The notes under the pieces: generated by a model
Databases searched by the model: none
What the model was told of the DNA's origin: nothing
What the model saw: only the letters and a program-made list of their open reading frames with translations
Shown: piece by piece, positions 3,021 to 39,142 of the stretch
Layout of the letters: each line of letters opens with the position of its first letter
How positions within the stretch are numbered: the first letter of the stretch is position 1
Translations under genes and position numbers: made by a program
Origin: a virus
Direction: 5' to 3' (one strand)
Length of the DNA: 64,000 nt
UHGV virus genome: UHGV-0277504

Positions 3021-3076
3021 TTAAATCTGTCCTTTGTTAAAAAATATGTATAAAAGGTGGTTTATAAACCACCTTA

Positions 3077-3874
3077 TTAAACTCTTCTATATTGATTGGA
3101 GAAGATACTTAAATCTGTATTCATAACATTATTAAACTTACTTTCTACAGCTTCTCCTAATTCTTCAGAATTATTTTGATTACCTTGTACATTCACATTA
3201 ACTCTAACATTATTGTTATTATTCACGTTACTAGACATTGAATTACTATTAGAGCTTCTTGTAGGTAAAGGTGCTGTATTGTTAAGTAAAGCACTTGTCA
3301 CAGGACTTACAGGTTCTTGTGGTGCTGAGAATCTACCACCTTTACCTCCTTTAGCTCTTCCTCCTGTAGGAGACCAACCACCGTTAGGGTTATAGTCGCT
3401 CTTCCAGTTTTTATTATTAAAGAAAGCTAATAATTGGTCGTATCCATTATGAATGTTTCCATGTCCTTTTACTTTATAGTTGTTGAAAGTACTAGGAACA
3501 TATTGTAAAAGACCTTGTGCCTCATTACCGCCACTGTTTATATCTTTAATTTGTTGTTTTATTTTAGGGTCTCCACCAGATTCTTTTTGAATAAGACTTG
3601 CTATTCCGTCTACATCTTTATCTGATATTTTAACACCCATTGCTTTGGCGGCTTTTCTAATATCATCTTTCCATTTATCAGCTGATTTTTTCTTATCTCC
3701 ACCTGCTGAATCCCCTACGTCAGAGTCATCAGAACTACCTGAATCACTTCCTCCTCCGTCTAAAGATTTAGCATCATTTATTAATTGTTCAGCTCTATCT
3801 AATAAACTTTTATAAGTTTTAAGGTTTTTAGTCTCAGAAGCATTATTTTTCTCTCTGAGTTGTTCGGTAGTCAT
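3077..3874 (-). CDS. tail-associated lytic transglycosylase (SLT-domain) protein
   Basis: 265 aa; SLT-like motif (ESGGDP...GLLQYVPSTF); N-terminal LREKN + SDSG/D-rich linker; GGKGGRFS motif shared with the upstream paralog; strong RBS before ATG at 3874. Confidence 0.7.
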   Translation of the reverse strand: MTTEQLREKNNASETKNLKTYKSLLDRAEQLINDAKSLDGGGSDSGSSDDSDVGDSAGGDKKKSADKWKDDIRKAAKAMGVKISDKDVDGIASLIQKESGGDPKIKQQIKDINSGGNEAQGLLQYVPSTFNNYKVKGHGNIHNGYDQLLAFFNNKNWKSDYNPNGGWSPTGGRAKGGKGGRFSAPQEPVSPVTSALLNNTAPLPTRSSNSNSMSSNVNNNNNVRVNVNVQGNQNNSEELGEAVESKFNNVMNTDLSIFSNQYRRV

Positions 3875-3936
3875 TTTACCTTTTTTCTTTTTATCTCCTA
3901 GTATGCCATACGTTAAAGTATATAAGTTTTTAAATA

Positions 3937-4842
3937 TTAGTATTGTAAATTTTTATTCATGTAATTAACTACTTCATTTACAATCATATCACTTGCTTTA
4001 TCTACATCATAACCTTCTGGAATAGTTAAATTTAAGTCTAAATTCTTACTTCTTGTTGTTGATTCTACTGTTTCTGTCTGTGGAGGTGAAAACCTACCAC
4101 CTTTACCACCTTTTAAGAATTTATCTGAACTACCCATTATACTAGCAATCATTGTATCCCAGTTTCCTGCTGTTGCATATTCATGTTGTCCTCCATTATG
4201 ACGCATTTTGTGTAGTGTTTTTTGTCCTCTACTATAGAAATTTTTAGCTATCCACTTAGCTCCACCAACAATACCTAAACCATAATTAAATCCGTTATTA
4301 GGATTGTTATCAAACGCACCAATTCCGTACCAGTTACCTTTTTTAGGGTCTCCTCCATGTGATAGGTTGGAAGTACCCCAAGCTGTTTCTACAGCACTAT
4401 GTGCTACTAAGTAACGAGGGTCTAATCCAGATGCTTTACCTGCTTTCATGTATATTTCTCCTAAACCACGCATTTTAGAATTTTTAGGAGCCATAGCGTC
4501 AATCCATTTATTTAACATCTTAGCATTAACGCCCTTAGCTGTTTTACCTAAATCGTGTTTAGTTATATCTGAATTAGTAAAGTTTTTACCATTTAAGTAA
4601 TCTAGTTCACCTACAGAACCGCCTTCATCATCTCCTCCAGAGTCTGATGATTCTAGGTTAGCTATTACGTTATCAAAGAATTGGCTTAATACAGGTATGT
4701 TTTTATTTTGTTCTCGTGCATTTTTCTCTCTTAAAGTTTCAAGTCTAAATCTTTCTTTTAGATTATTTCTCTTCTTACCCTTCTTCTTACCATAGGTTAA
4801 AATATATAAAACATTTATAAATTTTATCCTTTTATATAGGTC
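3937..4842 (-). CDS. muramidase (glucosaminidase-like) domain reading frame with no start codon for 108 codons; probable 3' exon of the tape measure gene
   Basis: Frame open from 4842 to 3937 (302 codons). First ATG/GTG/TTG in frame is at 4518 only. Upstream codons are protein-like (…RLETLREKNAREQ…SSDSGGDDEG…) and parallel the N-terminus of paralog 3077..3874. Glucosaminidase-type motif LVAHSAVETAWGTS. A group I intron lies immediately upstream. Confidence 0.55.
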   Translation of the reverse strand, partial: DLYKRIKFINVLYILTYGKKKGKKRNNLKERFRLETLREKNAREQNKNIPVLSQFFDNVIANLESSDSGGDDEGGSVGELDYLNGKNFTNSDITKHDLGKTAKGVNAKMLNKWIDAMAPKNSKMRGLGEIYMKAGKASGLDPRYLVAHSAVETAWGTSNLSHGGDPKKGNWYGIGAFDNNPNNGFNYGLGIVGGAKWIAKNFYSRGQKTLHKMRHNGGQHEYATAGNWDTMIASIMGSSDKFLKGGKGGRFSPPQTETVESTTRSKNLDLNLTIPEGYDVDKASDMIVNEVVNYMNKNLQY

Positions 4843-5268
4843 TTAGAAGGATAGTTATTTTTTTAAAAATATAAAGTTGGAATAAAATTTAAAAACTTAT
4901 ATATTTTAACTTTATTTAGCTATAGAACGCTACTTCTAAGCCCTAGGTCTATTCCTAGTCACTAGCTTTCACTACGTGTGTAGACTATTTGACTTCCCTA
5001 TTATTATAGGGTGGGTATTTTTCTTCCACCAATAGCTTGTGGTTTTACTCTCCCGTCAGGAGATAGTCGTTGAGGGTCTTCCTTATCTTTTGACTTAGGA
5101 CTTTCCCTGCTAAAGACCGATTACGTATACCTTAGGGTTTAACCTTAGCACATCTAACTTATTTTTTCTACTTTCGTAACTTTTCCATTTATCCTTTCGG
5201 ATTCTGTTTTAGTTAAGTTAGCTTTACGGATTCTTAGCATTTAACACCCGATACTAGCAACTTACGCT
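4790..5268 (-). ncRNA. group I intron at the 3' end of the tape measure gene (3' boundary uncertain, 4790-4830)
   Basis: Minus-strand core homologous to the other introns in the window (…GUUACGAAAGUAGAAAAAAU…UAGAUGU…CAACGACUAUCUCCUGACGGGAG…AAUAGUCUAC…). Candidate P1 is exon GCUAGU paired with intron GCUAGU (U.G at the splice site), placing the 5' splice site after …CTA GT, 5 nt before the TMP stop. Confidence 0.6.
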
Positions 5269-8200
5269 ACTAGCAAGGCAATTTGTTTGTAACAATCGTT
5301 ACCTCTAAATCCTGAAATTCCTTTTTTATTTTCTTTATCTCCCTCTTTTTCAAATTCACTTAAACCTTGATGACTTAATTGTGGTGCCATACTAATAAGT
5401 GCTGGATTTCTTTTTACTTTATCATCTGAAGGTGAACCCATTCCACCTTTTCCAGCTCCTCCTAAAAATCCTATTTTGGTAGGGTCGTTTGTTGGTATGT
5501 TTTTATTTTTACCTTTTTTGCTTCCAAATAATCCATGCCATGCTTTTCCTACAAGACCAAAGTCTTTATAAGATTTAGGTTTAGTCCATCCGATACCTAA
5601 AGATTTTTTCAATCCTTTTTTACCGACTTCTGAGCCAGCTTTATCTCCAACTATTCCTCCTATTGTACTTCCAGCAATACCACCTATAGCTGTTCCTAAT
5701 CCTGGTATTACAGAACCTATAGTAGCACCAATAGCTCCACCTGCGGTAGCTCCTGTAGCTCCACCGATGCTTCCTCCTATAGCTTCTTTGTTACCGCTCT
5801 TAAGAGAACTACCTATATCTAATGCTGATATACCTAATCCTAATAATGGAATTCCTTTTCCTAATCCTTTAAGACCTCTAGCTCCTGCTGTTATACCACT
5901 TGTTCCGCCTTTGCCTTTAGGTATTTTAGATAAAAGACCTTTTCCTTTAGAGACTATACCTTTTCCTGTTGTCTTGGCATTACTTCCTATTCCTTTCCAG
6001 TCAATTCCTCGACCTTTAGAAACAACTCCTCTACCAATGTTTTTAGCATTGTTTCCGAGTCCTTTCCAATCAATTCCTTTAATGCCTTCTCCTGCTCTAG
6101 TTGTTCCACCTTTTATTTTCTTACCTAAATCTCCTAAACCTTTTATCTGTCCGCCTCGGCTTGTATCGGTAGGTTTATATTCTCCAACTTGAATAAGTCT
6201 TTTACCAAAATCACCAACTCTTCCAAGTCTTCCACCTTTTCTACCTGTTGAACCTTTGTGGAATGTTCCACCTCCATCACCATTAGGTTTTTTAGGGGAA
6301 CCTCCACCACCTATTGGAGTTCCAGAACCATTATCTGTTCTTCCTCTACGACCTCCTGCTCTTCCATTTCTACCTTTTCCTCTACCTCTTCTTCCTAATA
6401 AAGATTCTCCGTTAGCTCTTCTACCTAACATCTCAGAACCTTTCATCATTGCTATAGATTTCATTAAAGAAACAGCAAAAGCCATGGCACTAGCTCCTGC
6501 TAAGTAGAAAGGTGCTGGAAGACTCATTAATGCTGTATTAACATTTCTTATTTTTCCAGTCATATCGTAAAGGTTTTCTGCTAATCTATCAGCTTTAGCT
6601 TTTCCTTGGTCGTCTTTACCTTCTTGTGATTCTTTATAATCTTTAGAGTTTTTATCTCTTTCTTTAGAACCTTCTTTAGATGTTTTCTTTTTATAGTCTT
6701 CTAAAGCTTTCTTAGTTAGCTTACCTTCTTCAGCCATTTTAAATAACTCATCAGACTGTTCTAAGGTAGCATCTACACCCATTTGTTTTAGGCTTTCATT
6801 AAAGGCTATCTTTTGTCCTTTTTTAGAGCTTGATACTTGAGTAGCTTGTTGATAAAGGTCTGATACATTTTCAGGGTCGGCAATACCTTTATCCATACGT
6901 TTTTGTAAATCATACCTACCTTCTAAACCTTGGTATTGTGAGCCCCAACCCATTGCATTTCTAATATAAGGGTCTTGCATACCATTTCTAATTCCATCAT
7001 TAAGGCTTGACATGAATTCTGCACCTTGTTGTCCTTGTAATCCTTTAGAACCTGAAGATGCTAACATAGATTGCATAGATGATACATTACTTAAATCATT
7101 TTTTGTCATCGTTCTTCCTTGACCGACTGACTCAGCAATTGAAGATAAAGCTTTTAATTGCTCTTCATTTCTTCCAACCATTCCTGATTCTTTTAGTCCG
7201 CCTAAGAAAGCACTTTGTATATCTTTAATATCTGCTCCAGAATCAATAGCACCAGTGTGCATTAATGTATTCATAGAGTCTCTATAAGCTTGGTCGTCTG
7301 CGATACCCATCGCTTTTCCACCTGTAGCTAGCTCTTTAACTCCACTATTTACATTGTCTTGACCTTTATATCCTACACTTCCCATGTAGTCTGAAGCAAA
7401 TTTAAGCATATCAGTACTATTATAACCTAGATGATTATCTATTGACATCTCTTCAAAATTATGTCTTACTGATTTATAATCACTTGTACCCATTTGCTGA
7501 CCTAAGGCTATTTTTTGTGGTCGGTTTGTTTCACTTAAAGACTTACCTTTCATGTACATACCGCCACCAACAGCCATGCCTGCCATTACACCGTGTGAAG
7601 CAATGGAAGGTGCACGTTCTCTAAAGATACCTTTAAACGTTCCTCTAGCTGGGTCTATTCTTCGGTCATTCATCTGTTTACTAGCTACATTATCAAAGTA
7701 GTTAGATGTAGTATCCATTTGTCGTATTAATTTTTCAATGGAATCAATCTCTTTAGCTCTAGCTTTATTGTTAGCTTCTATTTGTGCTCTTTCTTGTTGA
7801 TAGGTAGATTTATCAATTTCTTTATTTGTAAATCTCCTATTAAGATTAGACATTGATGTATCGTTTTTATCTCTATTACGTAAATCAGCTAATTGTTTTT
7901 TTAAATCAGCTGAATCTCTACGCATAAATTGAGATTTACCGATTGCTGATTTAGTTTGAGTACCAGTATCATAAGACATTCTACCTGATATTTCTGATTT
8001 ATCTAAATTACGTCTTACTCTATACTCAGAAGCTCTTATCTGTTTCATCTTTTGCTGAGCTGTCATAGCATTATTTAAAGATTCATAATAATCATCTGTA
8101 GCTTCACCTAGACGCTTCATGTCTTGTATACGTGTATTAATACCACTATCGGTACCTACAGTTTTAGAAGAAAACTCATCTAGATTTTCAGTCATAGATT

Positions 8201-11076: not shown

Positions 11077-12027
11077 TTATTTGTTTTTAAACTTTCTTTT
11101 TAAATTTTTACCTATAGAACTTACTAAATTCTTAACATCATTTAAAGTTATATTAAAATAATTGCTAATTTCATATTTATCCATATATTGATATTTTTCA
11201 ATAAAATCATCAATATCTATCTCTAGTCCATTATAAAATGTAAACACACTAGGTCTTTTTGAAACTATCCCTAATCTATTTAATTTATTAAAAATCTCTA
11301 GTACAGTATCTTTATACGTAAATATAATAAGTTGTATACCATTTTCTTTACAGTAATCTTCTTTTTTAGTATCCCATTCCTTTTGTTTTTCTTTTGTAGT
11401 GTTTCTATAGTCTCTATAATGTTGCTGTCCGTTATATTCTATACAATACTCCATTCCTTTATGTTTAATATAAAAATCCATTCTCTGATTTGAATTTTTT
11501 AAGAGGTACTCTCTTTCATATACTGTACCATTGTAATCTAGTATATCTTTAATTATCTTCTCTCCTATAGATAATTTATATCCATTATTCTTTTTATTTC
11601 TAATAGTCTTTATATAGTCTATATAGCTAATAGCGTTTAATACAGTTAATTTCTCTTCTTCTGTAGCTTCTCTAACAGTATATCCTTTTGCAGTAGTTCT
11701 TGGAAACCCATCCCTATGCCCTCTTGACACGTTTATCAATTCTGACTTACTGATACCATATAAATTTTGTATCATTTCCATAGGTAACTTTATAACTTCA
11801 TTACCTTTAGTTAATACATATACCTTTATGCGTTTATCAGTAATTGTTTTTGCTTTTTCACTAAAATCAGAATCTTCGTACCTAAACAACCATCCTTTAG
11901 TAGATTTTATTTTACCTTCTAAACACCTATTAACCGTACCCGTATTACCTACTAAATTTTGTGCTTCTTTTACACTAATGAATTCTTTACTTTCTCCTGT
12001 TTTAGTGTTTAAACCTATAATTTTCAT
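11077..12027 (-). CDS. free-standing homing-endonuclease-like protein (N-terminal DNA-binding modules + C-terminal DUF559/Vsr-like nuclease motif)
   Basis: C-terminus has the DFY..IEYNGQQH motif shared with the three other paralogs in the window. Real start is probably MKIIGLN (12027), preceded by AAAGGAGG. Sits next to intron-containing tail tube region. Confidence 0.6.
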   Translation of the reverse strand: MKIIGLNTKTGESKEFISVKEAQNLVGNTGTVNRCLEGKIKSTKGWLFRYEDSDFSEKAKTITDKRIKVYVLTKGNEVIKLPMEMIQNLYGISKSELINVSRGHRDGFPRTTAKGYTVREATEEEKLTVLNAISYIDYIKTIRNKKNNGYKLSIGEKIIKDILDYNGTVYEREYLLKNSNQRMDFYIKHKGMEYCIEYNGQQHYRDYRNTTKEKQKEWDTKKEDYCKENGIQLIIFTYKDTVLEIFNKLNRLGIVSKRPSVFTFYNGLEIDIDDFIEKYQYMDKYEISNYFNITLNDVKNLVSSIGKNLKRKFKNK

Positions 12028-12097
12028 TATATATCCTCCTTTATTTTTATCTTTAAATAAATTATACCATGTCATTAGTGTTTTGTCAAATTAAAAA

Positions 12098-12125
12098 AGA
12101 CCTGAGATAACTCAGGTCTTATAAT
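12098..12125 (-). terminator. rho-independent terminator after tail tube/intron region
   Basis: Minus strand AAGACCUGAG-UUAUC-UCAGGUCUUUUUU. Confidence 0.6.
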
Positions 12126-12127
12126 CG

Positions 12128-12833
12128 AATTAAGCTTTGTCACTTGCTGTCCTTTGTACCCTATCTCTCGATATATTTTAAAGGGAGTAGACTATACCAT
12201 AATCTTTAATGTAATTTAAAGACTCACCTATTATAGTCGTTGAAGCTTCCCACTTTGTAGGCTTGCCTGCGTATCATCTATTGCTTTAAGTACTTAGGAT
12301 TTAACCTTATACCATACTAGATATTTTTTCTGATTTCTCAACCTTCAAGCTTATCTTTTAGGATTACTTTGTAGTTATCTAGTCTTTAAGACTTTCACGC
12401 AATTTAAGGTGTTTTCTATGCTTGTCACCAAACATAGCCTCTATAAATTAAAGGTAGCTAAATTCAATTTCTTCTGTTACGATTTCGTTTGTACGCCCTT
12501 TTATACCGTTGGTTTCCCAATACTTTAACACTTTTTTATTAGTCGGAATAGACTATACCATAATCTTTAATGTAATTTAAAGACTCACCTATTATAGTCG
12601 TTGAACCTTCTTCTTATCTTTAGACTTAGAAGCTTGGATGCTGATTACCTATTACTTAGTCACTTAGTACCTTCTGTTTAAGGCTTTTATCTCAACATAT
12701 GACATCTAATCAATTTTTTCTACTTTCGTAACCTTCACATTTACCTTTTCAAGTTTTGTTGTGGTTTGATTAGCTTTAAGGTTTTCCAGCAATTTAAGGT
12801 GTTATTCGATTATCTATTACTAGATAAAAGGAG
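12128..12833 (-). ncRNA. two tandem group I intron-like elements (plus candidate micro-exon) downstream of tail tube exon 1
   Basis: Two copies (approx 12815-12490 and 12425-12130) share UUCAACGACUAUAAUAGGUGAGUCUUUAAAUUACAUUAAAGAUUAUGGUAUAGUCUA (P7-P8-P7'). Both open with an ACACCUUAAAUUGC box. Copy A has P2-like UUAUCUAGUAAUAGAUAAUCGAAUAAC and a GUUACGAAAGUAGAAAAAAUUGAUUAGAUGU core. Confidence 0.6.
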
Positions 12834-25558: not shown

Positions 25559-26362
25559 TTAAACAAAAACATCATTATCACCTACAAAATTTTGAACTTC
25601 TTTTTTAGTCATTAAATATCTATCTTTAACTTTTTTAAAACCTAGATAATCTATATAATTAATAGCTTCTTTTAATTGTATATCATATATAGATATTGCC
25701 ATTTCATTATCTATACCTAGTTTTATAAGTTCAAATATAGAACGTAATCCTACTCCGCTAGATTCTGGTGAACTAATATATGATTCTAATTTTATTTCTT
25801 TGTCATATAAATTATATTCTGCTATACCTATAACATCCTCACCGTTATTGAATACTTTATAAATAGAAGATGTTTCTTTTAAATGAGATGTATTTACACC
25901 TTTATTTTTAAGTATAGACAAAGATGTAGCTAATCTTTCTGGATTTACTTTTTCATTTATACCACCATTATCTTCAACTGAAGAACCTATAGCTGAGTTA
26001 TTATTAGTTTCAGGTTGTTTATCTTGTTGCTCTTTATCTTTTGAATTTCCGTCTTCGTAAATAGTCATTTCTACTTCTTTGCCGTTTCTAATTACTTTAC
26101 GTTTAACTTTATTCAAATTAGATAAATCTTTATCTCCGCCTTTGGTTATTTTTTCAGTATTTGATTTACAAAACAATACCATATCATAAAAGCTATTAAA
26201 ACCATTTGGTTTGTATAAATGTTTATATTTTTTGTTTAATGTTTCTTCGTTATTAATAACTTCATCAAAACTAAAATATTTACCTGTAAGAAAGTATAGA
26301 TTATTTTCATCCATACTTTCATTATCTTTTTTCATTATATCATAAATAAACTCATTTGTCAA
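25559..26362 (-). CDS. hypothetical protein
   Basis: 267 aa. Confidence 0.5.
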   Translation of the reverse strand: MTNEFIYDIMKKDNESMDENNLYFLTGKYFSFDEVINNEETLNKKYKHLYKPNGFNSFYDMVLFCKSNTEKITKGGDKDLSNLNKVKRKVIRNGKEVEMTIYEDGNSKDKEQQDKQPETNNNSAIGSSVEDNGGINEKVNPERLATSLSILKNKGVNTSHLKETSSIYKVFNNGEDVIGIAEYNLYDKEIKLESYISSPESSGVGLRSIFELIKLGIDNEMAISIYDIQLKEAINYIDYLGFKKVKDRYLMTKKEVQNFVGDNDVFV

Positions 26363-26375
26363 ATTAAATCACTAC

Positions 26376-27146
26376 CTAATCTATATAATAGTTTGTATTA
26401 CTATTTCCTGAATTATAATTAGTAGTAACAAAAGTAGAATTAAACGCTGTACCATTTCCTTGTTGTATTAACTGTTGTATTCGTGTTAATCCGATATTTG
26501 CATATACACTTGCCTGTGCCCAGTGGTCGTCACCTTTACGTTTAATTACTTGATACATTTCTTCTTTTTTCTCGTCTTCCTCATCCATAATTAAAACATT
26601 TTGCCAATGTTTTAAATATGTTCTAAGGTCATCATCTACTTCTTGATACATACGTATATTTTTTGTTTTTAGTCCTTGGATATAAATCTTATTTTGCATA
26701 AGCTTATCAACAGTTACCGTATTATCTTTTTCATTAAATTTAGGTCGTAACTGTCCTGTAGAACGTGGACTGGAATTGTAAGTACATCCAAAAACTTTAT
26801 CTTCTCCAAAATGGTTTATAAGTTTTAGGACATTATTACCACTATCCCCATTATCTGCTATGATAATGTCTGGTTCATATTTAGAAATTTCCCATATAAT
26901 TGTTTCTAAATCAGCTTCAACCATATTAGGTCTTGTATTTTTCTTAACAGAAAATAATCTTATTAAGTCTTTTTTACCATCAGGCAATACACCATGGACT
27001 GTAACCCAGTGGTGATTTCCCCAATCAATTCCTACAGAAATATAAGAATAATTACCTCTGTTAAACATTTGTTTTTTAGCAACAGGTGATTTATTTTCAA
27101 ATACATCTTCTTCAAGAACACGCATTTTAACATCTTCATATGGCAT
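26376..27146 (-). CDS. terL: terminase large subunit, exon 4 (C-terminal nuclease domain)
   Basis: …ISVGIDWGNHHW…IIADNGDSGNN… RNase-H-like terminase nuclease motifs. Begins at ATG 27146 directly after omega-G 27147 of the upstream intron, in frame with exon 3. Confidence 0.8.
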   Translation of the reverse strand: MPYEDVKMRVLEEDVFENKSPVAKKQMFNRGNYSYISVGIDWGNHHWVTVHGVLPDGKKDLIRLFSVKKNTRPNMVEADLETIIWEISKYEPDIIIADNGDSGNNVLKLINHFGEDKVFGCTYNSSPRSTGQLRPKFNEKDNTVTVDKLMQNKIYIQGLKTKNIRMYQEVDDDLRTYLKHWQNVLIMDEEDEKKEEMYQVIKRKGDDHWAQASVYANIGLTRIQQLIQQGNGTAFNSTFVTTNYNSGNSNTNYYID

Positions 27147-28444
27147 CAATTACTACCGTTACTTTCGTAATACTTTAACATTCATTTAAGAATCGGTTTA
27201 GACTATATCATAACCCTTATTTTTGGTTAAGGGTTCCTTGCTTTACACTAATAACTTTTCATTTAAATAATCTTCAATATCTTTATATTTTCTTTTACTA
27301 TAATCTACTTCAAGAAGTAAGTAACCGTTATATTCTGCATAACTTTTCTTTAGCTCATCTCTTAATTTTTGGTTTTTAAATGCCTTCTCTCCACCAAAAG
27401 ATTTTACTGGTTGATAATGTTGTATTCCTTGATACTCTATTAATATATCATACTCAGGTAAATAAAAGTCATAAGATAGTGGCTTATTGTAGATTAAATC
27501 ATCAAACTTTTTCTGTGTTTCATATTTAATATTATTATTAATTAAATATTCTTCTACAAACTTTTCTCCAATAGGCATTTTACATTTAGGACACATATCT
27601 CTCTCCATAAGATGAGAAGCTCTTATTTCCCATGTTAAACCACATTTATGTCTAACTAAAACTTTAGATTTAGAATTAGTATACTCTGATAACACTTCAT
27701 AATCATTACCGTATTTTTTCTTAACTTCATCTAAAAACTGTTGATGAGTTCTTCTTTGTTTTAAGTTATGGTTTTTTATTCTACAATGAAAACATCTACT
27801 GTTCTTTGATAGAAACTCATTAGGTTTAACTTCCCATTCTTTTCCACATACATTATGAATTAATTTTACTTTATTAGTGGCTCCTGTATAATCACCAATT
27901 AAAGTATATTCATCACCTACTAAATCATGGAGTTCTTTTTTAAATTGTTTTGTAGTTTTAGATTTCCTACCTTTTCTTTTATCATTACAAGCAGGACATC
28001 TGTTACCATCTAAAAAAGATTTAGGCTTTATTAAGTATTCATGATTTCCACAAGTCTCAGAATTATGTCTCATAAGTATTTTTGTTTTATTATTTACATA
28101 TTCTCCTAAAACTTCATATTCATTTGATACCTTATCATATACTCTTTTCTTAAATTCTTCTGTAGTTATCTTCCTTGTCATTTTTAACCCCCCTTCTTTA
28201 TACATTTTTTTATTAAAAGTTATTAGTTTTTATCTAGTTCTCACTATATCCATTTATATAGTTACCTAGAAATTTAGTCGTTCGGCATTTACTATAATCT
28301 AATTATACCATACATTGTTATTCTGTCAATAATTAAATTATAGATTTAGCACAGGATTGCTTTATGCTTTTTCTAGCACTTAAGGTTTCCCTGTTTAACA
28401 AGGTTATTCGATATATATTACTATATAAAGGGGCTATGCCATTA
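27147..28444 (-). ncRNA. group I intron 3 in terL (contains endonuclease ORF)
   Basis: P1 GGGU|UAAUGGCAUAGCCC (U.G at splice site; exon ends …YSLG, stop UAA is the first 3 nt of the intron). P2-like UUAUAUAGUAAUAUAUAUCGAAUAAC. P7 5' AACGACUAAA before the ORF. S-element AUGAUAUAGUCUAAACC plus 3' module after the ORF. Confidence 0.75.
27243..28181 (-). CDS. intron-encoded homing endonuclease-like protein (Cys4 zinc-ribbon repeats + DUF559/Vsr-like nuclease motif)
   Basis: Start MTRKITTEEF after AAGGGGGG SD; three CxxC…CxxC ribbons; C-terminal YDFYLPEYDILIEYQGIQH; paralog of 29214..30155. Confidence 0.7.
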   Translation of the reverse strand: MTRKITTEEFKKRVYDKVSNEYEVLGEYVNNKTKILMRHNSETCGNHEYLIKPKSFLDGNRCPACNDKRKGRKSKTTKQFKKELHDLVGDEYTLIGDYTGATNKVKLIHNVCGKEWEVKPNEFLSKNSRCFHCRIKNHNLKQRRTHQQFLDEVKKKYGNDYEVLSEYTNSKSKVLVRHKCGLTWEIRASHLMERDMCPKCKMPIGEKFVEEYLINNNIKYETQKKFDDLIYNKPLSYDFYLPEYDILIEYQGIQHYQPVKSFGGEKAFKNQKLRDELKKSYAEYNGYLLLEVDYSKRKYKDIEDYLNEKLLV

Positions 28445-29170
28445 ACCCAACGAATAGTTATAAAATGCTTGCTTAGAATCTGTGTTCATTTCTTTTTCTA
28501 CTAATTGGTCTGCTGAAATCCATACAGCGTTCATTTGAGATATATAATATCCTCTAATACCTGAATTATTTTTTGTTCGTTCAGGATAACGACATTCCCA
28601 CACACCATTATACCATCTATCTAAAGGTTTACCACATTTTTGACATACATATTGGTATGTTCCATCTTGTACCGTTTTTGCTTGTTCATCAATACCTTCA
28701 GGATTAACCAATAATAAATTACCGCTTTGTTCTAAATTATTCTCATCATAGGGAGCATATTTCATCTCGTTATGGTAATCACAATGTTGGCAAACATGTG
28801 CATAGTACCATTGGTCTGATTGTTGATATAATTTATGAATACCTACACCTGGAGCTGAAGGTGTTGAGAATCTTCTAACAATGTGTAATGGTGAACTTGA
28901 CATAGATTCAAGTGCTGATGATTCAGCAAGTGAGTTAACACGTTCATATTCATCCATAGCTAAAAAGTCAATATCCACACCCTCAACTGAACCTGGTTTA
29001 CTACTCGTTCTAAAGAATAGACTAGAGTTTCTTATTTGTTTATACCCTAAAGAATCTTTATCCCAATTTACTATATCTTTAAAATATGATTTTTCTAAAA
29101 CAGGATTAAGCCTTGACTGAACAAATTTCTTAAGTTGCTCTTGTGTCGATTCTACCGCTATTTTCATAGT
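28445..29170 (-). CDS. terL: terminase large subunit, exon 3 (ATPase Walker B/motif III region)
   Basis: VDIDFLAMDEYE (Walker B-like), RRFSTPS; 5' end lies 0-15 nt upstream of ATG 29167 (in-frame stop 6 codons upstream sits inside the intron S-element/P9). Confidence 0.7.
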
Positions 29171-30428
29171 ATTTAAAACGGACTAGACTATATCTTAACT
29201 CAACATTTAGGTGTTAAGTTCTCTGCTTTACTTCTAAAACTAACTTTAATATATCTTTCTCTATACTCATTTCATTTTGTGTATAAGGTATTCTAATAAG
29301 TCTGATATTGTTATCTTGTGCATACTTATTTTTTATGCCATCCCTTATTTGTATTTCTCTTAGATAATCTTCTCCTCCAAAAAAATCCACTACTTTAGTA
29401 TGTTGTAATCCATCAAATTCAATAAGAGTATTTATAGAAGGAATATAAAAATCAAAAGGTAATTCTCTTTTATATCTACATTCTTTAAATCTTTTTTCTC
29501 TTTCAAATTCTACATTGTGTTTATTAAGTAAATCTTGTATTAACAACTCTCCTTTTGATGATTTACAATAAGGACACCCTGATAAGCGTATCACTTGATT
29601 AGGTTCAGATTTAAACGTATTTGAACATTCTGTACATCTAAAAGTAGTTTTTGTATGTGTATTTACATACTCTCCTTCTAATAAGATACGAGTTCCATGC
29701 TTATCTTTTAAATCTTTAAGTAACTTATTAATATCTTTTTTCTGTTTATCATGATTATACTCATTTACACATTTAGGACATAAAAACTTTTTATGTTGTC
29801 TTAATGCATTTGTAGGACTTACTAAAAAAGTATGGTTATGTTTTAAACATCTATGTTTAATTTTTACATCATGGGTTTTATAAATACCTTCTATTACTAT
29901 ATTTCCTTTATATTTGTTTTCTAATTCTTTACTATATTTTTCATAACTCTTAACCCTTTTTAGTTCTCTACAATGTTTACATCTGTTACCGTTCATAAAA
30001 TTGTTTGCTTTTACTTCCCATTCTTTACCACACTTATTATGTCTAAGTAAAACTTTATTTTTACTTAAAGTATACGTACCTATGACAGTATACTCATCTC
30101 CTACTAAATTATAAACATCTTTAACAAATTCTTCATGCGTTTTTTTCTTAGTCATTATATACTACCCTCCTTATACCTTATAATTTAATCTAGTTTTATT
30201 AAAGTTAGTTAGTTTTCTTATCTAGTTCTCACCTACACCTTTTTGTAAGTTACCTAGAAATTTAGTCGTTAGGCATTTACCTTAATTTAATTATATCATA
30301 CATTATTATTTTGTCAATAATTAAATTAAAGATTTAGCACGGTATCGGCTCTATCCGTTAGGACTTAGCTTCTCTTACCAGGTTATTCATTATTCCCCTG
30401 TGACCGTTTAACAGAGTTTTAATTCCCC
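29171..30428 (-). ncRNA. group I intron 2 in terL (contains endonuclease ORF)
   Basis: 5' core 30420-30180 homologous to introns 1 and 3 (CUCUGUUAAACGG…GUGCUAAAUCU…AACGACUAAAUUUC). S-element AAGAUAUAGUCUAG at ~29190 overlaps the ORF 3' end. Upstream exon ends U|UAA. Confidence 0.65.
29214..30155 (-). CDS. intron-encoded homing endonuclease-like protein (Cys4 zinc-ribbon repeats + DUF559/Vsr-like nuclease motif)
   Basis: 313 aa; MTKKKTHEEFVKDVYNLVGDEY parallels 27243 paralog; C-terminal FDFYIPSINTLIEFDGLQH; AAGGAGGG SD. Confidence 0.7.
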   Translation of the reverse strand: MTKKKTHEEFVKDVYNLVGDEYTVIGTYTLSKNKVLLRHNKCGKEWEVKANNFMNGNRCKHCRELKRVKSYEKYSKELENKYKGNIVIEGIYKTHDVKIKHRCLKHNHTFLVSPTNALRQHKKFLCPKCVNEYNHDKQKKDINKLLKDLKDKHGTRILLEGEYVNTHTKTTFRCTECSNTFKSEPNQVIRLSGCPYCKSSKGELLIQDLLNKHNVEFEREKRFKECRYKRELPFDFYIPSINTLIEFDGLQHTKVVDFFGGEDYLREIQIRDGIKNKYAQDNNIRLIRIPYTQNEMSIEKDILKLVLEVKQRT

Positions 30429-30569
30429 AAAGATTTAGGGAATGTGTAAAGACATTTTACATTTTTAAAACTATACATATCTGCAAAATGTACCATTTCC
30501 ATTACAGACATTTCACTTAATCCTAGCTGACGTGACTTAATTACTGCTTTATTAGGATGAGTATCATTT
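30429..30569 (-). CDS. terL: terminase large subunit, exon 2 (mini-exon with deviant Walker A KSRQLGLS)
   Basis: ~47 codons NDTHPNKAVIKSRQLGLSEMSVMEMVHFADMY… with stops flanking. Joins exon 1 (ending …AAA AUC GU) in frame via the first A after omega-G 30570. KSRQxGxS matches the deviant terminase Walker A of the lambda gpA KSARVGYS type. 3' boundary is ±10 nt. Confidence 0.6.
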
Positions 30570-30917
30570 CAATTACTACCGTTACTTTCGTAATACTTTA
30601 ACATTCATTTAAGAATCGGTTTAGACTATATCACAACCCTTATTTTTGGTTAAGGGTTCTCTGCTTTACGGAATATTATTCCTCTTATCTATTAAAATAG
30701 AAATTTAGTCGTTAGGCTTTTACTATAATCAAATTATATCATATATTATTATTTTGTCAATAATTAAATTATAGATTTAGCACGGTTGGTTCCCACTGTC
30801 TGTGTATAGTCAGATTTAGGGTTTCTTACCAGTATATTGGTTTTCTATACATTATTTTACTATGCCCGTTTAACAGAGTTATTCAATACATATTACTACA
30901 TAAGGTCGCAAATAATT
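30570..30917 (-). ncRNA. group I intron 1 in terL (no ORF)
   Basis: ~345 nt; P1 UCGU/GCGA with U.G; P2-like UUAUGUAGUAAUAUGUAUUGAAUAAC; core and 100-nt 3' module near-identical to intron 3. Confidence 0.7.
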
Positions 30918-31131
30918 ATACGATTTTAACTTGCCAAGGTCTATGTGCTTGTGCTTTACTTCTATCTCTATTAGGTATACTGAATGTAATAGGATGTCCT
31001 CTTAGTGTATGATACTTTAACATATACGTACTCGGATTAAGCATATTCAATATATGGTCTAACTGTTCTCTAGTAACATTTTTTGTTTTAAAAGTTTCCT
31101 GTGTCATTTTTATTAATTCTTTACCATCCAT
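30916..31131 (-). CDS. terL: terminase large subunit, exon 1 (N-terminus)
   Basis: AGGAGG SD + ATG 31131; ORF stops 2 codons into intron 1. Confidence 0.6.
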   Translation of the reverse strand: MDGKELIKMTQETFKTKNVTREQLDHILNMLNPSTYMLKYHTLRGHPITFSIPNRDRSKAQAHRPWQVKIV

Positions 31132-37326: not shown

Positions 37327-38058
37327 ATGAAAACTAAAAAACAAGCTTTAAAATGGATTTTAAATACTATAGGTCAAGGTATAGATTGGGATAAAATGTA
37401 TGGGTTTCAATGTATGGATTTAGTTGTTGCTTATTTATATTACGTTACTGATGGGAAAATAGCAATGTGGGGAAATGCTATTGATGCTCCTAAAAATAAT
37501 TTTAAAGGTACTGCTAAAGTAATTAAAAATTACCCTGCTTTTAGACCTGAAGCAGGAGATATAGTAGTTTGGTCTTATGGTAATTTTAGTACTTACGGAC
37601 ATATTGCTGTAGTTATAGATGGAGACCCTTACGGTGACTTGCAGTATATCACAGTAGCTGAGCAAAATTGGAATGGTTTAGGACTATACAAACAAGAAGT
37701 TACTACAAAACGTATTCATAATTACGATGGTGTATCTCATTTCATAAGACCTAAGTTCAAAAAAACAGTTAAAAAAGAAGATAACACTCTTACAAAAGAA
37801 AAAAACAACAAAAAAACAAAAGGAAAAAAATTAAAAGTATCAACACAAAGAATAAACTACACTATGGATAAAAGAGGTTATAAACCTAAATTTGTTGTAA
37901 TACACAATGATGCTGGTAGTTCTTCTGCACAACAGTATGAACAAGGATTAAAAAATGCAGGATACAGTAGATATGCTCAAGGAGTAGCACATGCATACGC
38001 TTCTGATGGTTATGTGTGGGAAGCAATATCAGAAGATAGAATAGCTTGGCATACGGGT
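37327..38058 (+). CDS. endolysin exon 1 (CHAP domain + start of amidase_2 domain)
   Basis: CHAP motifs (FQCMDLV…GHIAVV); amidase start VVIHNDAG…AWHTG; exon ends at GGGU of P1. Confidence 0.8.
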
Positions 38059-38410
38059 AAATAGTTGCCCTGTTATATAGTAATGTATAATTAAAATTCT
38101 TTTAATTGACTGGGAGGCTAAGGCTATCAAGCTATGCTAATCAGCATCCAAGAATATTGTTTAAAAAAACTACTTGACAACATAATAACTTTTGGAAACA
38201 ATATTAAGGTTCAACGACTATCCTTATAGACGAGTGCCAATAAAAAATAAATCGTCAACAGGAGTAGGGCTCAAGTTAATGGAGTAGGTGAGAATCCTTT
38301 AAATCGAAATGGAGAACCCCTAAAATAATTAGGGTGAAGATATAGTCTAGACTTATAGGAAACTATGAGAAGTTCATAAGAGAACTGGTAGAGTGTTACG
38401 AACTCTATTG
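38059..38410 (+). ncRNA. group I intron in endolysin gene (352 nt, no ORF)
   Basis: P1 GGGU|AAAUAGUUGCCC; P2-like GUUAUAUAGUAAUGUAUAAUUAAAA; P7 GGUUCAACGACUAUCC; S-element GAAGAUAUAGUCUAGAC; P9 AGAGUGUUACGAACUCU; omega-G 38410. Confidence 0.8.
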
Positions 38411-39142
38411 AATATATCGGATGGAACAAATCCAGGAACAGGTAACTTTGAAGGATATGGAATTGAAGTTTGTCAATCTTTAGGAGATAGAAATACTTTC
38501 TTAAAAAATGAGCAAACTGTATTCCAATTTATTGCAGAAAAATTGCAAAAATGGAACTTACCTGCAAATAGAAATACCATCAGACTTCATAATGAATTTA
38601 TACAAACAGAATGTCCCCATGCTTCAGCATATTATCATGCAGGTATGAATACTAAAGTAGATGCTTATACAAAAGAAAGACAATTAAAAATAAAAGATTA
38701 TTTCATAAAACAAATTAGAGCATACATGAAAGGAAGTACACCTAAATCTACAGTAGTAAAATCTAGTAAAAGTAGTGGTTCTTTACCTAAGAAACAAGGT
38801 AAAAAACAAAAATTTAAATCAAATATTGGTAAAACATTCGACTTTAATGGATTAAATACCAATACTTGGGGTACTAAATGGTATTATGAAAATAATACAT
38901 TTACATGTAATGCTCGACAAGGTATCATAACAAGAGTAGGTAGTCCGTTTACAAACGCACCTCAAGCAGGTGTTTTATTCTACGGACAAACTGTAACATA
39001 TAATCAAGTAGCTGTTAATCCAAAAGAGCCATTTGTATGGATTTCATGGATTACAAATAATGGTACTGAAGTATGGATGCCTATTGAAGTCTTAGACAGT
39101 AATAATAAAATTATTGAGCAGTGGGGTACTTTTGGTTGGTAA
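38411..39142 (+). CDS. endolysin exon 2 (rest of amidase_2 + SH3b cell-wall binding domain)
   Basis: Spliced junction …AWHTG|NISDGTNPGTGNFEGYGIEVCQS restores a contiguous N-acetylmuramoyl-L-alanine amidase domain; C-terminal SH3b-like WYYENNTFTC…. Confidence 0.8.
   Translation, partial: NISDGTNPGTGNFEGYGIEVCQSLGDRNTFLKNEQTVFQFIAEKLQKWNLPANRNTIRLHNEFIQTECPHASAYYHAGMNTKVDAYTKERQLKIKDYFIKQIRAYMKGSTPKSTVVKSSKSSGSLPKKQGKKQKFKSNIGKTFDFNGLNTNTWGTKWYYENNTFTCNARQGIITRVGSPFTNAPQAGVLFYGQTVTYNQVAVNPKEPFVWISWITNNGTEVWMPIEVLDSNNKIIEQWGTFGW

What the first reader, a model, noticed from the sequence alone, without database searches (positions are those of the whole stretch)
26376..31131. Terminase large subunit gene split into four exons by three group I introns, two of them carrying endonuclease genes
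Four minus-strand ORF pieces together give a complete TerL: an N-terminal piece, a 47-codon mini-exon carrying a deviant Walker A (KSRQLGLS), a Walker B/motif III piece, and a nuclease domain. They are separated by sequences with group I hallmarks: a P1 with U.G at the splice site, a P2 U-A hairpin with GUAA loop, a P7 5' strand, and an AAGAUAUAGUC S-element. Frames are continuous across predicted junctions: exon 1 ends …AAA AUC GU, exon 2 supplies the A (V-N-D-T-H…); exon 3 ends …YSLG with UAA as the first intron codon; exon 4 starts at ATG right after omega-G 27147. Each upstream exon ORF terminates 0-5 nt into its intron, a classic phage-intron arrangement. Three introns in a packaging ATPase, including one isolating the P-loop on a ~140-nt exon, is unusual. 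Expression of the essential late gene would depend on ribozyme activity.
Basis: partly seen in the sequence, partly recalled or inferred. Interest (0 to 1): 0.75.

Follow-up and report, generated by a model that had tools for sequence, protein, structure and literature searches.

The report
Phage terminase gene with three introns
The DNA-packaging (large terminase) gene of this Staphylococcus epidermidis Twort-like phage really is cut into four pieces by three related group I introns, two of which carry homing-endonuclease genes, but this layout is common and already described in this phage group.

Summary
On the minus strand, terL (31131-26376) consists of four exons separated by three paralogous group I (IA2-like) introns. 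Relatives that lack each intron fix the junctions to the base: E1 31131-30920, I1 30919-30570, E2 30569-30437, I2 30436-29147, E3 29146-28445, I3 28444-27147, E4 27146-26376. The spliced 605-aa product is 100% identical over residues 91-605 to the uninterrupted gene of phage phiIPLA-C1C, and it aligns in one stretch to the TerL profile. Every intron follows a U that can pair with G in P1 and ends in G. P3, P4, P6 and P8 covary across 18 homologues.

The mini-exon is 133 nt, and exon 3 starts 21 nt downstream of the ATG.

The standard Rfam model misses the window's introns, but it passes the ORF-less orthologue of I3.

I2 and I3 carry phrog_559 genes (zinc-ribbon repeats plus a Vsr-like nuclease domain). 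Each intron also holds a perfect sigma-70 promoter in P6a.

Multi-intron terL genes, the P-loop mini-exon, VSR-type intron genes and intron promoters are all documented in Twortvirinae. Phages 80A and 80B have introns at the same three sites. This is a new allele of a known kind, of low interest. Splicing itself was not tested.

The parts
30920..31131 (-). terL exon 1 (212 nt; ATG 31131, AGGAGG 8 nt upstream; ends ...AUCGU)
   Evidence: The junction is fixed by the Terranova allele, which lacks intron 1.
30570..30919 (-). Intron 1, 350 nt, no ORF. Elements: P1 UCGU(30923-30920)/GCGA(30909-30906) with U.G; P10 AUUU(30913-30910)/AAAU(30569-30566); P2 30902-30887; P3 30878-30873 with 30664-30659; P7 30710-30706 with 30628-30624; P7.1 30701-30688; P7.2 30682-30670; P8 30658-30635; omega-G 30570.
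   Evidence: It is 100% identical to the phiIPLA-C1C intron. Rfam RF00028 gives only an 11.4-bit partial match.
30437..30569 (-). terL exon 2, a 133-nt mini-exon (residues 71-115) carrying the gpA-type deviant Walker A KSRQLGLS
   Evidence: The Pfam GpA_ATPase match runs through it once the exons are spliced. phrog_38778 corresponds to this fragment.
29147..30436 (-). Intron 2, 1290 nt. Elements: P1 UUCCCU(30442-30437)/GGGGAA(30428-30423) with U.G; no P2; P3 30416-30411 with 29226-29221; P7 30267-30263 with 29190-29186; extended P7.1 30258-30221; ORF in the P7.2 position; P8 29220-29197; omega-G 29147.
   Evidence: It is absent from Quidividi, phiIPLA-C1C, Terranova and Twillingate.
29214..30155 (-). 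Intron 2 ORF, 313 aa: three zinc-ribbon repeats plus a C-terminal Vsr/DUF559-like nuclease domain (IEFDGLQH). Its last codons overlap P3' and the 5' strand of P8.
   Evidence: phrog_559 at E 7.6e-82. Pfam DUF4379/CapR zinc ribbons. AF2 model with pLDDT 90.3. Foldseek top hits are AbaSI, Vsr and 3hrl. An identical protein occurs in ENA/Logan contigs.
28445..29146 (-). terL exon 3 (702 nt; residues 116-349; rest of the ATPase domain, which holds the Walker B motif)
   Evidence: Pfam GpA_ATPase.
27147..28444 (-). Intron 3, 1298 nt. Elements: P1 GGGU(28448-28445)/GCCC(28434-28431) with U.G; 6-bp P10 UGGCAU(28441-28436)/AUGCCA(27146-27141); P2 28427-28412; P3 28403-28398 with 27241-27236; P7 28279-28275 with 27205-27201; P7.1 28270-28233; P8 27235-27212; omega-G 27147.
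   Evidence: It is absent from phiIPLA-C1C. The ORF-less orthologue in Twillingate scores 55.0 bits on RF00028, above the 50-bit threshold.
27243..28181 (-). Intron 3 ORF. The probable start is ATG 28181 (312 aa, the length of the annotated Quidividi_076); the mechanical ORF starts at 28205. It is a paralogue of the intron 2 ORF, 32% identical.
   Evidence: phrog_559 at E 4.4e-86. Identity.
26376..27146 (-). terL exon 4 (771 nt including the stop; RNase H-like nuclease domain)
30733..30760 (-). Perfect sigma-70-type promoter (TTGACA, 16 nt, TG-n-TATAAT) in the P6a hairpin of intron 1
   Evidence: 12 of 12 hexamer matches plus TG. The P6a hairpin lies at 30774-30723.
30290..30317 (-). The same promoter in P6a of intron 2, 135 nt upstream of the intron ORF
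28302..28329 (-). The same promoter in P6a of intron 3, 121 nt upstream of the intron ORF

Best explanation
The region is the large-terminase gene of a Sepunavirus-like (Twortvirinae, Herelleviridae) Staphylococcus epidermidis myophage. Three paralogous group I introns of the phage IA2 type interrupt it.

Inferred mechanism. The terL precursor RNA folds into three ribozymes. Each is excised by the standard two-step guanosine-initiated reaction. Cleavage occurs after the U of a U.G pair in P1, and exon ligation occurs after omega-G. This joins E1-E2-E3-E4 into an mRNA for a 605-aa TerL. Without splicing, translation stops within 1 to 6 codons of each 5' splice site, and the Walker A motif (exon 2) stays separated from the rest of the ATPase (exon 3) and from the nuclease domain (exon 4).

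Intron-borne genes. Introns 2 and 3 carry, in the P7.2 position, genes of the phrog_559 family. These encode three zinc-ribbon DNA-binding repeats plus a Vsr/DUF559-like nuclease domain. They most likely act as homing endonucleases that cut intron-less terL alleles in mixed infections and copy the intron in. Each intron also has a consensus sigma-70 promoter in the P6a hairpin. That promoter probably lets the host RNA polymerase transcribe the endonuclease gene early, independently of terL. Such transcripts lack the 5' half of the ribozyme and cannot splice.

Shown here: the exon/intron boundaries, the ribozyme core structure, homology of the spliced protein, and family membership of the ORFs.

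Inferred only: splicing activity, autocatalysis, endonuclease activity and promoter use.
For: 1. Intron-less alleles give base-exact junctions. The spliced CDS is in frame (1818 nt), and its product is 100% identical to the uninterrupted phiIPLA-C1C protein over residues 91-605.
2. The spliced protein matches phrog_675 TerL in one stretch, profile positions 6-572 of 576, at E 4e-243. The Pfam GpA_ATPase match lengthens from profile 61-233 (exon 3 alone, 42 bits) to 31-233 (51 bits) across the E2/E3 junction.
3. All three 5' splice sites follow a U that pairs with G of an internal guide sequence. All three introns end in G. I3 has a perfect 6-bp P10 and I1 a 4-bp P10 (sequence).
4. On 18 homologous intron cores from 10 phages (Staphylococcus, Enterococcus, Listeria), 98.1% of cells pair in P3, P4, P6, P7 and P8. 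Compensatory changes occur in 18 of 26 pairs. None of 500 shuffles reaches this, and slid controls give 28-44%. The P7.1 inner helix and the P9 GAAA hairpin also covary.
5. P7 (GACUA/UAGUC) and the adjoining GAUA of J8/7 are identical, and J6/7 near-identical (CUAAC/CGAAC against GCAAC), to those of the self-splicing, crystallised Twort orf142 ribozymes.
6. RF00028 scores the ORF-less orthologue of I3 at 55.0 bits, above the 50-bit threshold, with the same helix assignment. MDA2 and Listeria homologues score 35 and 26 bits at E 1e-5 and 6e-3.
7. Of the 23 differences between the window and phiIPLA-C1C, all synonymous, 11 lie within 15 nt of the I2 and I3 insertion sites. They create the U at -1 and the P1 and P10 complementarity.
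8. Published annotation and papers describe terL group I introns with precise boundaries in this genus, and VSR-type intron genes (PMC6597688; PMC11265418). LC-MS/MS peptides from both halves of a split TerL were reported for a Kayvirus (PMC5618024). Intron endonuclease genes under early promoters are also reported (PMC10383478).
9. The promoters match 12 of 12 positions plus TG in each intron.
Against: - No RNA data were available for this sequence, so splicing is inferred.
- Rfam RF00028 does not reach its threshold on the window's own introns. There was no hit in the whole-window scan, only an 11.4-bit partial match on I1, and 24 bits on an I2-type orthologue.
- I2 lacks P2 and has almost no P10.
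- In related Bastillevirinae, some terL and polymerase introns spliced in vivo but not in vitro (PMC11878797). Strict self-splicing therefore cannot be assumed.
- The nuclease fold match is weak: Foldseek E 2.7e-3 to 1.8e-2, with none at or below 1e-3. I am not aware of any phrog_559 member that has been assayed as a homing enzyme (my own knowledge, not searched).
Confidence: 0.93

Rival explanations
1. The introns are real, but at least one (most plausibly I2, or I1 with its large P5 extension) is not autocatalytic. It would need a phage or host protein, or it would splice so poorly that TerL supply is limited. In that case the gene is regulated, or partly crippled, rather than neutrally interrupted.
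For: - I2 lacks P2 and has a minimal P10.
- I1-type and I2-type cores score far below Rfam's threshold.
- In Bastillevirinae, several introns spliced only in vivo (PMC11878797).
- SEP1 terL shows an atypical early expression profile that its authors attribute to the introns (PMC11265418).
Against: - The same intron types sit at the same sites in many viable, isolated phages: 80A/80B, SA11, PSU6 and phiIPLA-C1C.
- All core helices are intact and covary.
- TerL is essential.
Confidence: 0.2
2. The four pieces are separately translated fragments of a split or decaying terminase gene, and the intervening DNA consists of inserted endonuclease cassettes. There would be no RNA splicing. This is how several GenBank records annotate the locus.
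For: - Records such as 80A, SA11, MDA2 and PSU6 annotate separate 'terminase large subunit' CDSs.
- PHROGs holds separate families for the fragments.
Against: - Exon 2 has no start codon of its own at its 5' end.
- Exon 1 ends in the middle of a codon.
- Exon 3 starts 21 nt downstream of the only nearby ATG.
- Removing the intervening DNA restores exactly the uninterrupted protein of phiIPLA-C1C.
- The intervening DNA has a covarying group I core.
Confidence: 0.02
3. The three near-identical ribozymes cross-react, with the 5' splice site of one intron joined to the 3' splice site of another. This would give exon-skipped isoforms, as seen for Twort orf142 and phage SIOphi. Only E1-E2-E4 stays in frame, and it would encode a 371-aa protein with the N-terminus, the P-loop and the nuclease domain but without the ATPase core.
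For: - The 100-nt 3' domains of I1 and I3 are nearly identical: they differ at three positions, two in P3' that match the compensating changes in P3 5'.
- Exon 2 ends and exon 4 starts on codon boundaries.
- Exon skipping is documented in Twort orf142 and in SIOphi (PMC11878797).
Against: - The guide sequence of I2 has no P10 complementarity to exon 4 (sequence).
- There are no RNA data.
- The other skipped products are out of frame.
Confidence: 0.1

Closest known systems
terL group I introns of Sepunavirus phages Quidividi, Terranova, Twillingate, SEP1, phiIPLA-C1C and 80A/80B
   Same: Same gene and same genus, with 97-99% DNA identity in the exons. I1 is 100% identical to the phiIPLA-C1C intron. 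I3 and its ORF match Quidividi at 99.3%. 80A and 80B have introns at the same three sites. Introns with precise boundaries are published (PMC6597688). Two terL introns are reported for SEP1 (PMC11265418).
   Different: No record in the phage collection covers 80% or more of the region. In 80A/80B the I2 ribozyme carries a different, 172-aa ORF (phrog_59), whereas here it carries a 313-aa phrog_559 gene. The closest DNA matches to that gene in the collection are paralogues at about 70% identity. The identical protein exists only in metagenome and Logan contigs. Relatives hold further introns at two other terL sites, window-equivalent about 28950 and about 28600.
Twort orf142 (tail tube gene) introns I1-I3: self-splicing IA2 group I ribozymes with a solved crystal structure
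   Same: Three introns in one late structural gene. The architecture is the same: P1, P2 (GUAA loop), P3-P9, with P7.1 and P7.2 between P7 and P3'. P7 and the adjoining GAUA of J8/7 are identical in sequence and J6/7 is near-identical.
   Different: The host gene differs. The terL introns have a larger P5 domain (I1, I2), a promoter-bearing P6a hairpin and an extended P7.1. They score 11-55 bits on RF00028, against 64-101 bits for the Twort introns.
Multi-intron terL genes of Silviavirus (Romulus/Remus, SA11, KSAP7/11), Kayvirus (I-MsaI intron), Enterococcus and Listeria Herelleviridae, and Bastillevirinae
   Same: Homologous intron cores at the same or adjacent terL sites. The P-loop mini-exon is flanked by two introns in SA11, PSU6 and MDA2. 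phrog_559/VSR-type intron ORFs are present. Promoters are annotated inside the introns (PMC7497331, PMC5618024, PMC11878797, PMC10383478).
   Different: The genera differ, core identity is 67-88%, and the combinations of occupied sites and ORFs differ.
Vsr / DUF559-type (PD-(D/E)XK-like) nucleases, including AbaSI's cleavage domain
   Same: The C-terminal domain (about residues 200-313) of the intron ORFs gives AbaSI, E. coli Vsr (TM 0.54 over the target) and 3hrl as top structural matches. The residues D235, E246, H252 and K275 are invariant.
   Different: Foldseek E-values are only 3e-3 to 4e-1. No Pfam Vsr or DUF559 hit appears at E <= 0.1. The N-terminal triple zinc-ribbon array is specific to this family. 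Activity is untested.

Membership tests
Group I intron | 5' splice site after a U that forms a U.G wobble with the internal guide sequence in P1 | tested here: met
   I1 UCGU/GCGA, I2 UUCCCU/GGGGAA, I3 GGGU/GCCC. In each case the U at -1 lies opposite a G. The junctions were fixed independently by intron-less alleles.
Group I intron | The last intron nucleotide is G (omega-G) | tested here: met
   G at 30570, 29147 and 27147. Where the junction is ambiguous by 1 nt (I1, I2), only this register gives both U at -1 and G at omega.
Group I intron | Conserved core: P3-P8 and P4-P6 domains with a P3/P7 pseudoknot, supported by covariation | tested here: met
   18 homologues, 26 pairs, 98.1% paired, 18 pairs with compensatory change, none of 500 shuffles as good, slid controls 28-44%. 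P7 never varies, so it is complementary but uninformative.
Group I intron | Guanosine-binding P7 and J8/7 catalytic core | tested here: met
   GACUA and GAUAUAGUCU are identical to the crystallised Twort ribozyme and to the RF00028 consensus; J6/7 differs by one or two bases (CUAAC/CGAAC against GCAAC). This rests on sequence identity, not on an assay.
Group I intron | Score at or above the gathering threshold of Rfam RF00028 (50 bits) | tested here: inconclusive
   Window I1 gives an 11.4-bit partial match. The whole window gives no hit. The ORF-less orthologue of I3 scores 55.0 bits and passes. An I2-type orthologue scores 24.4 bits. MDA2 and Listeria homologues score 35 and 26 bits. The whole-window scan also missed the endolysin intron, which scores 78 bits in a focused scan, so filters account for part of the negative result.
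Group I intron | GTP-dependent self-splicing | not testable with these tools
   This needs in vitro transcription and splicing, or cDNA.
Subgroup IA2 (phage type) | Extra helices P7.1 and P7.2 between P7 and P3' | tested here: met
   I1 has the hairpins 30701-30688 and 30682-30670. I2 and I3 have an extended P7.1 and an ORF in the P7.2 position. The P7.1 inner helix pairs 6 of 6 in 13 homologues with 9 different sequences.
Large terminase subunit (gpA/T4-like ATPase plus RNase H-like nuclease) | A contiguous match of the spliced product to TerL profiles, including the P-loop | tested here: met
   phrog_675 positions 6-572 of 576 at E 4e-243 in a single stretch. Pfam GpA_ATPase covers residues 79-290. 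Terminase_6C matches exon 4 weakly (E 0.007).
Homing endonuclease, VSR-like (phrog_559) | Family membership by profile | tested here: met
   E 7.6e-82 and 4.4e-86.
Homing endonuclease, VSR-like (phrog_559) | Vsr/PD-(D/E)XK-like nuclease fold | tested here: inconclusive
   The AF2 model has pLDDT 90.3. The top Foldseek hits are AbaSI (E 2.7e-3), Vsr (E 1.8e-2, TMt 0.54) and 3hrl (TMt 0.68). None reaches E <= 1e-3.
Homing endonuclease, VSR-like (phrog_559) | Site-specific cleavage of the intron-less allele and intron mobility | not testable with these tools
   The only evidence is indirect. Intron presence and absence is patchy among near-identical phages. Synonymous changes cluster at the insertion sites.
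HNH endonuclease (label used in several GenBank records) | HNH motif or domain | tested here: not met
   Neither ORF has a Pfam HNH-family hit at E <= 0.1. The fold matches are Vsr-like. The 'HNH' label appears to be a naming carry-over.

The most novel reading that the evidence does not exclude
The three paralogous ribozymes, together with their internal early promoters, might form a regulatory device rather than neutral parasites. In this reading, GTP-dependent and possibly cross-reacting (exon-skipping) splicing would set the timing or amount of TerL. It could also yield an in-frame E1-E2-E4 isoform that lacks the ATPase core. The promoter in the ORF-less intron 1 would drive a 5'-truncated transcript with a function of its own.
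Probability: 0.07. Interest if true: 0.5.

Novelty: new member of a known kind. Interest (0 to 1): 0.15.

Why it matters
The main value is for annotation. The correct terL CDS here is a four-part join encoding 605 aa. Several GenBank relatives (80A/80B, SA11, PSU6, MDA2) annotate the pieces as separate proteins and call the intron ORFs 'HNH'.

The locus also illustrates intron mosaicism. At least five terL insertion sites are used in one phage genus, and each isolate carries a different subset. Endonuclease genes and consensus promoters are plugged into fixed peripheral loops (P7.2 and P6a) of one ribozyme scaffold.

There is a practical caution as well. Rfam's standard group I scan misses these introns, and with default filters on a 64-kb window it even misses a 78-bit intron.

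None of this changes what is known about group I introns or terminases.

Tried and rejected
- Whole-window Rfam scan at gathering thresholds: nothing found. A 5.6-kb scan at E <= 10 gave only noise. I first took this as evidence against group I. A control on Twort orf142 scored 64-101 bits, which showed that the model does cover IA2 introns. The negative result therefore came from divergence and large insertions in the window's introns, plus speed filters.
- My recollection that Twort orf142 was the terminase gene was wrong. It is the tail tube gene (PMC11878797; GenBank annotation).
They would insert about 14 extra codons that are absent from every intron-less allele.
- A sequence search of the intron ORF against the PDB gave only a zinc-ribbon match at E 0.64.
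- The minimum-free-energy fold of I1 has a z-score of only -2.06. It recovers P3, P6a, P7.1 and P8, but it is not persuasive on its own.
- Regex harvesting of core motifs with one mismatch was too noisy. I replaced it with nhmmer profiles.
- Rom_a (Romulus) looked composite and was left out of the covariation set.
- Inteins, group II introns, frameshifting and translational bypass were considered. None fits, because the intervening DNA has a group I core and the exons join exactly at the RNA level.

Full report
**What is there**

The minus strand between 31131 and 26376 holds four open pieces whose products look like parts of a large terminase. Between them lie three intervening stretches, two of which contain long ORFs.

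A megablast of the region against 50,697 phage records finds 278 records. The best matches, at 97-99% identity, are Staphylococcus epidermidis Sepunavirus myophages (Herelleviridae, Twortvirinae): 80A/80B, Quidividi, BE04, Terranova, phiIPLA-C1C and SEP1. No record covers 80% or more of the region, because relatives differ in which intervening sequences they carry.

**Exact boundaries**

Each intervening sequence is missing from at least one near-identical relative.
- Terranova lacks the first.
- Quidividi, Terranova, Twillingate and phiIPLA-C1C lack the second.
- phiIPLA-C1C lacks the third.

Reading the junctions against these alleles gives the following layout.

| Part | Coordinates | Length |
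|---|---|---|
| E1 | 31131-30920 | 212 nt |
| I1 | 30919-30570 | 350 nt |
| E2 | 30569-30437 | 133 nt |
| I2 | 30436-29147 | 1290 nt |
| E3 | 29146-28445 | 702 nt |
| I3 | 28444-27147 | 1298 nt |
| E4 | 27146-26376 | 771 nt |

Where the alignment leaves a one-base ambiguity (I1, I2), only one register puts a U before the 5' splice site and a G at the intron's end.

The joined CDS is 1818 nt, in frame, and encodes 605 aa. Residues 91-605 are 100% identical to the uninterrupted phiIPLA-C1C CDS. The product matches the TerL family phrog_675 in a single stretch, profile positions 6-572 of 576, at E 4e-243. The Pfam GpA_ATPase match grows from profile positions 61-233 (exon 3 alone) to 31-233 across the E2/E3 junction once the exons are joined.

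The E2/E3 boundary is not.
- Exon 2 is 133 nt, not 47 codons.
- Its frame runs 15 nt into I2 before the UAA.
- Exon 3 begins at ACA 29146 after G 29147. The ATG at 29167 and the next six codons are intron.
- I2 has no P2 hairpin.

**Are they group I introns?**

The three introns are paralogues that share long blocks of sequence. Read against the phage IA2 plan, each has the following elements (coordinates).
- A P1 with U.G at the splice site.
- P3, P4, P5 and P6, including a long P6a hairpin.
- P7 (GACUA/UAGUC).
- P7.1 and P7.2 between P7 and P3'.
- P8, then J8/7 ending in GAUAUAGUC.
- A P9 with a GAAA hairpin, and a terminal G.

I3 also has a perfect 6-bp P10 (UGGCAU with the first six bases of exon 4), and I1 has a 4-bp P10.

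Using nhmmer profiles of the two halves, I collected homologous cores from terL genes of ten phages infecting Staphylococcus, Enterococcus and Listeria. I then tested my structure on 18 of them (alignment A1).
- 98.1% of 468 cells pair.
- 18 of 26 pairs show compensatory changes.
- None of 500 shuffles reaches the observed values.
- Sliding the 3' partners drops pairing to 28-44%.

P3, P4, P6 and P8 all covary. P7 is invariant, which says nothing either way, but it is identical to the P7 of the Twort orf142 ribozymes. The P7.1 inner helix and the P9 hairpin also keep pairing through many different sequences.

**The Rfam result**

The standard Rfam scan found nothing in the window, and a permissive scan of the region gave only noise. 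A control showed that RF00028 scores the three Twort orf142 introns at 64-101 bits, so the model does cover this subgroup.

Focused scans gave the following scores.

| Target | RF00028 score |
|---|---|
| Window I1 | 11.4 bits, partial |
| I2-type ORF-less orthologue (PSU6) | 24.4 bits |
| Enterococcus MDA2 homologue | 35.3 bits, full length, E 1.4e-5 |
| Listeria homologue | 26.4 bits, full length, E 6.4e-3 |
| ORF-less orthologue of I3 in Twillingate | 55.0 bits (threshold 50) |

The Twillingate orthologue of I3 sits at the same site and has an identical 3' domain. Its Rfam alignment uses the same helix assignment as mine.

The 35-kb batch scan had missed that 55-bit hit. The whole-window scan had also missed an endolysin intron that scores 78 bits when scanned alone. 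The negative result therefore reflects two things: real divergence with large insertions (the P5 domain, P6a, P7.1 and the ORFs), and the speed filters. It does not show absence of the fold.

**Cargo**

The ORFs in I2 (30155-29214, 313 aa) and I3 (probably 28181-27243, 312 aa) are 32% identical paralogues. Both belong to phrog_559 (E about 1e-82). They have three zinc-ribbon repeats (Pfam DUF4379 and CapR) and a C-terminal domain with invariant D235, E246, H252 and K275.

An AlphaFold model (pLDDT 90.3) gives AbaSI's Vsr-like domain, E. coli Vsr and the DUF559-like 3hrl as best structural matches. The E-values are only 3e-3 to 4e-1, so the Vsr-like fold is likely but not proven. No HNH domain is detectable, despite that label in several records.

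The ORFs sit in the P7.2 position. The last codons of the I2 ORF overlap P3' and P8. The exact I2 protein is absent from the phage collection, where the best DNA matches are paralogues at about 70% identity. It does occur in ENA and Logan contigs.

Each intron's P6a hairpin contains TTGACA, a 16-nt spacer and TG-n-TATAAT, which is 12 of 12 consensus positions. Homologues with short P6a hairpins lack this element. Similar promoters are annotated in the Romulus terL introns. Reviews state that Herelleviridae intron endonuclease genes are under early sigma-70 promoters (PMC10383478).

**Signs of mobility and co-adaptation**

The window and phiIPLA-C1C differ at 23 positions in exons 2-4, all synonymous. 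Eleven of these lie within 15 nt of the I2 and I3 insertion sites. They include all five codons before I2. These changes create the U at -1 and the P1 and P10 complementarity.

Relatives carry further introns at two other terL sites. A metagenome scaffold has I2 but not I1.

**Comparison with what is known**

- Group I introns with precise boundaries in terL of Quidividi, Terranova and Twillingate are published (PMC6597688).
- SEP1 is described with two terL introns (PMC11265418).
- Kayviruses have the I-MsaI terL intron, and TerL peptides from both halves of the split gene have been detected (PMC5618024).
- Romulus/Remus and KSAP7/11 have terL in up to six pieces (PMC7497331).
- In Bastillevirinae, terL genes carry two or three introns with phrog_559/VSR genes (PMC11878797).
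- 80A/80B, SA11 and PSU6 have three terL introns, and the same P-loop mini-exon also appears in MDA2.
- PHROGs even has families for the separate fragments.

**Verdict**

It is an ordinary feature of this phage group. What is specific to this sequence is the combination of sites 1, 2 and 5 with a phrog_559 gene in the second intron. Splicing, autocatalysis, endonuclease activity and promoter use remain inferred.

Noticed in passing
window 38049-38369 (+), between ORFs 37327-38064 and 38393-39142: The endolysin gene (CHAP plus amidase plus SH3b) is split by an ORF-less group I intron. It scores 78.4 bits on RF00028 in a focused scan, yet the whole-window gathering scan did not report it. Default filters on long AT-rich input can therefore lose clear hits.
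   Followed up: partly
window about 11077-12830 (-), downstream of ORF 13202-12834: The tail tube gene, the homologue of Twort orf142, appears to be interrupted. The P7 motif AACGACTA lies at 12602, and a 3'-domain profile hit lies at 12573-12504 (E 4e-8). A 332-aa ORF (12075-11077) has a Vsr/DUF559-like C-terminus (CIEYNGQQH). The exon junctions were not determined.
   Followed up: partly
window 30733-30760, 30290-30317, 28302-28329 (-): Each terL intron carries a 12-of-12 sigma-70 consensus promoter with an extended -10 inside the P6a hairpin. This includes the ORF-less intron 1, where it has no gene to drive. Homologues with short P6a hairpins lack it.
   Followed up: partly
window 26334-26362 (-): A fourth 12-of-12 promoter lies just after the terL stop. 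It overlaps the TTG start (26362) that ORF-calling and the Quidividi annotation give for the downstream virion structural protein gene. Either that start codon is set too far upstream, or the gene is mainly read through from terL.
   Followed up: no
L004 (Terranova) 914-1163; L002 (Twillingate) 2812-3093: Relatives have small ORF-less introns of the same family at two further terL sites, window-equivalent about 28950 and about 28600. At least five sites are therefore used within one genus. Twillingate's record describes 'two introns', but the alignment suggests three.
   Followed up: partly
L013 (ENA scaffold, 107 kb) 3375-7010: A metagenome phage scaffold encodes the identical I2 endonuclease but has exons 1 and 2 fused (no intron 1) and a different pattern downstream. 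This illustrates free reassortment of introns among near-identical phages.
   Followed up: no
spliced TerL residues 1-65, 70-116, 116-349: PHROGs contains separate families that correspond to individual terL exons: phrog_5340, phrog_38778 ('unknown function') and phrog_12876. These are artefacts of un-spliced annotation in many phage genomes.
   Followed up: no
window 29214-29226 and 27236-27245 (-): The 3' end of the I2 endonuclease ORF overlaps ribozyme core elements: P3' GCAGAG and the start of P8 lie within its last four codons and stop. The I3 ORF stops 1 nt before P3'. Protein-coding and RNA-structure constraints therefore share the same bases.
   Followed up: no
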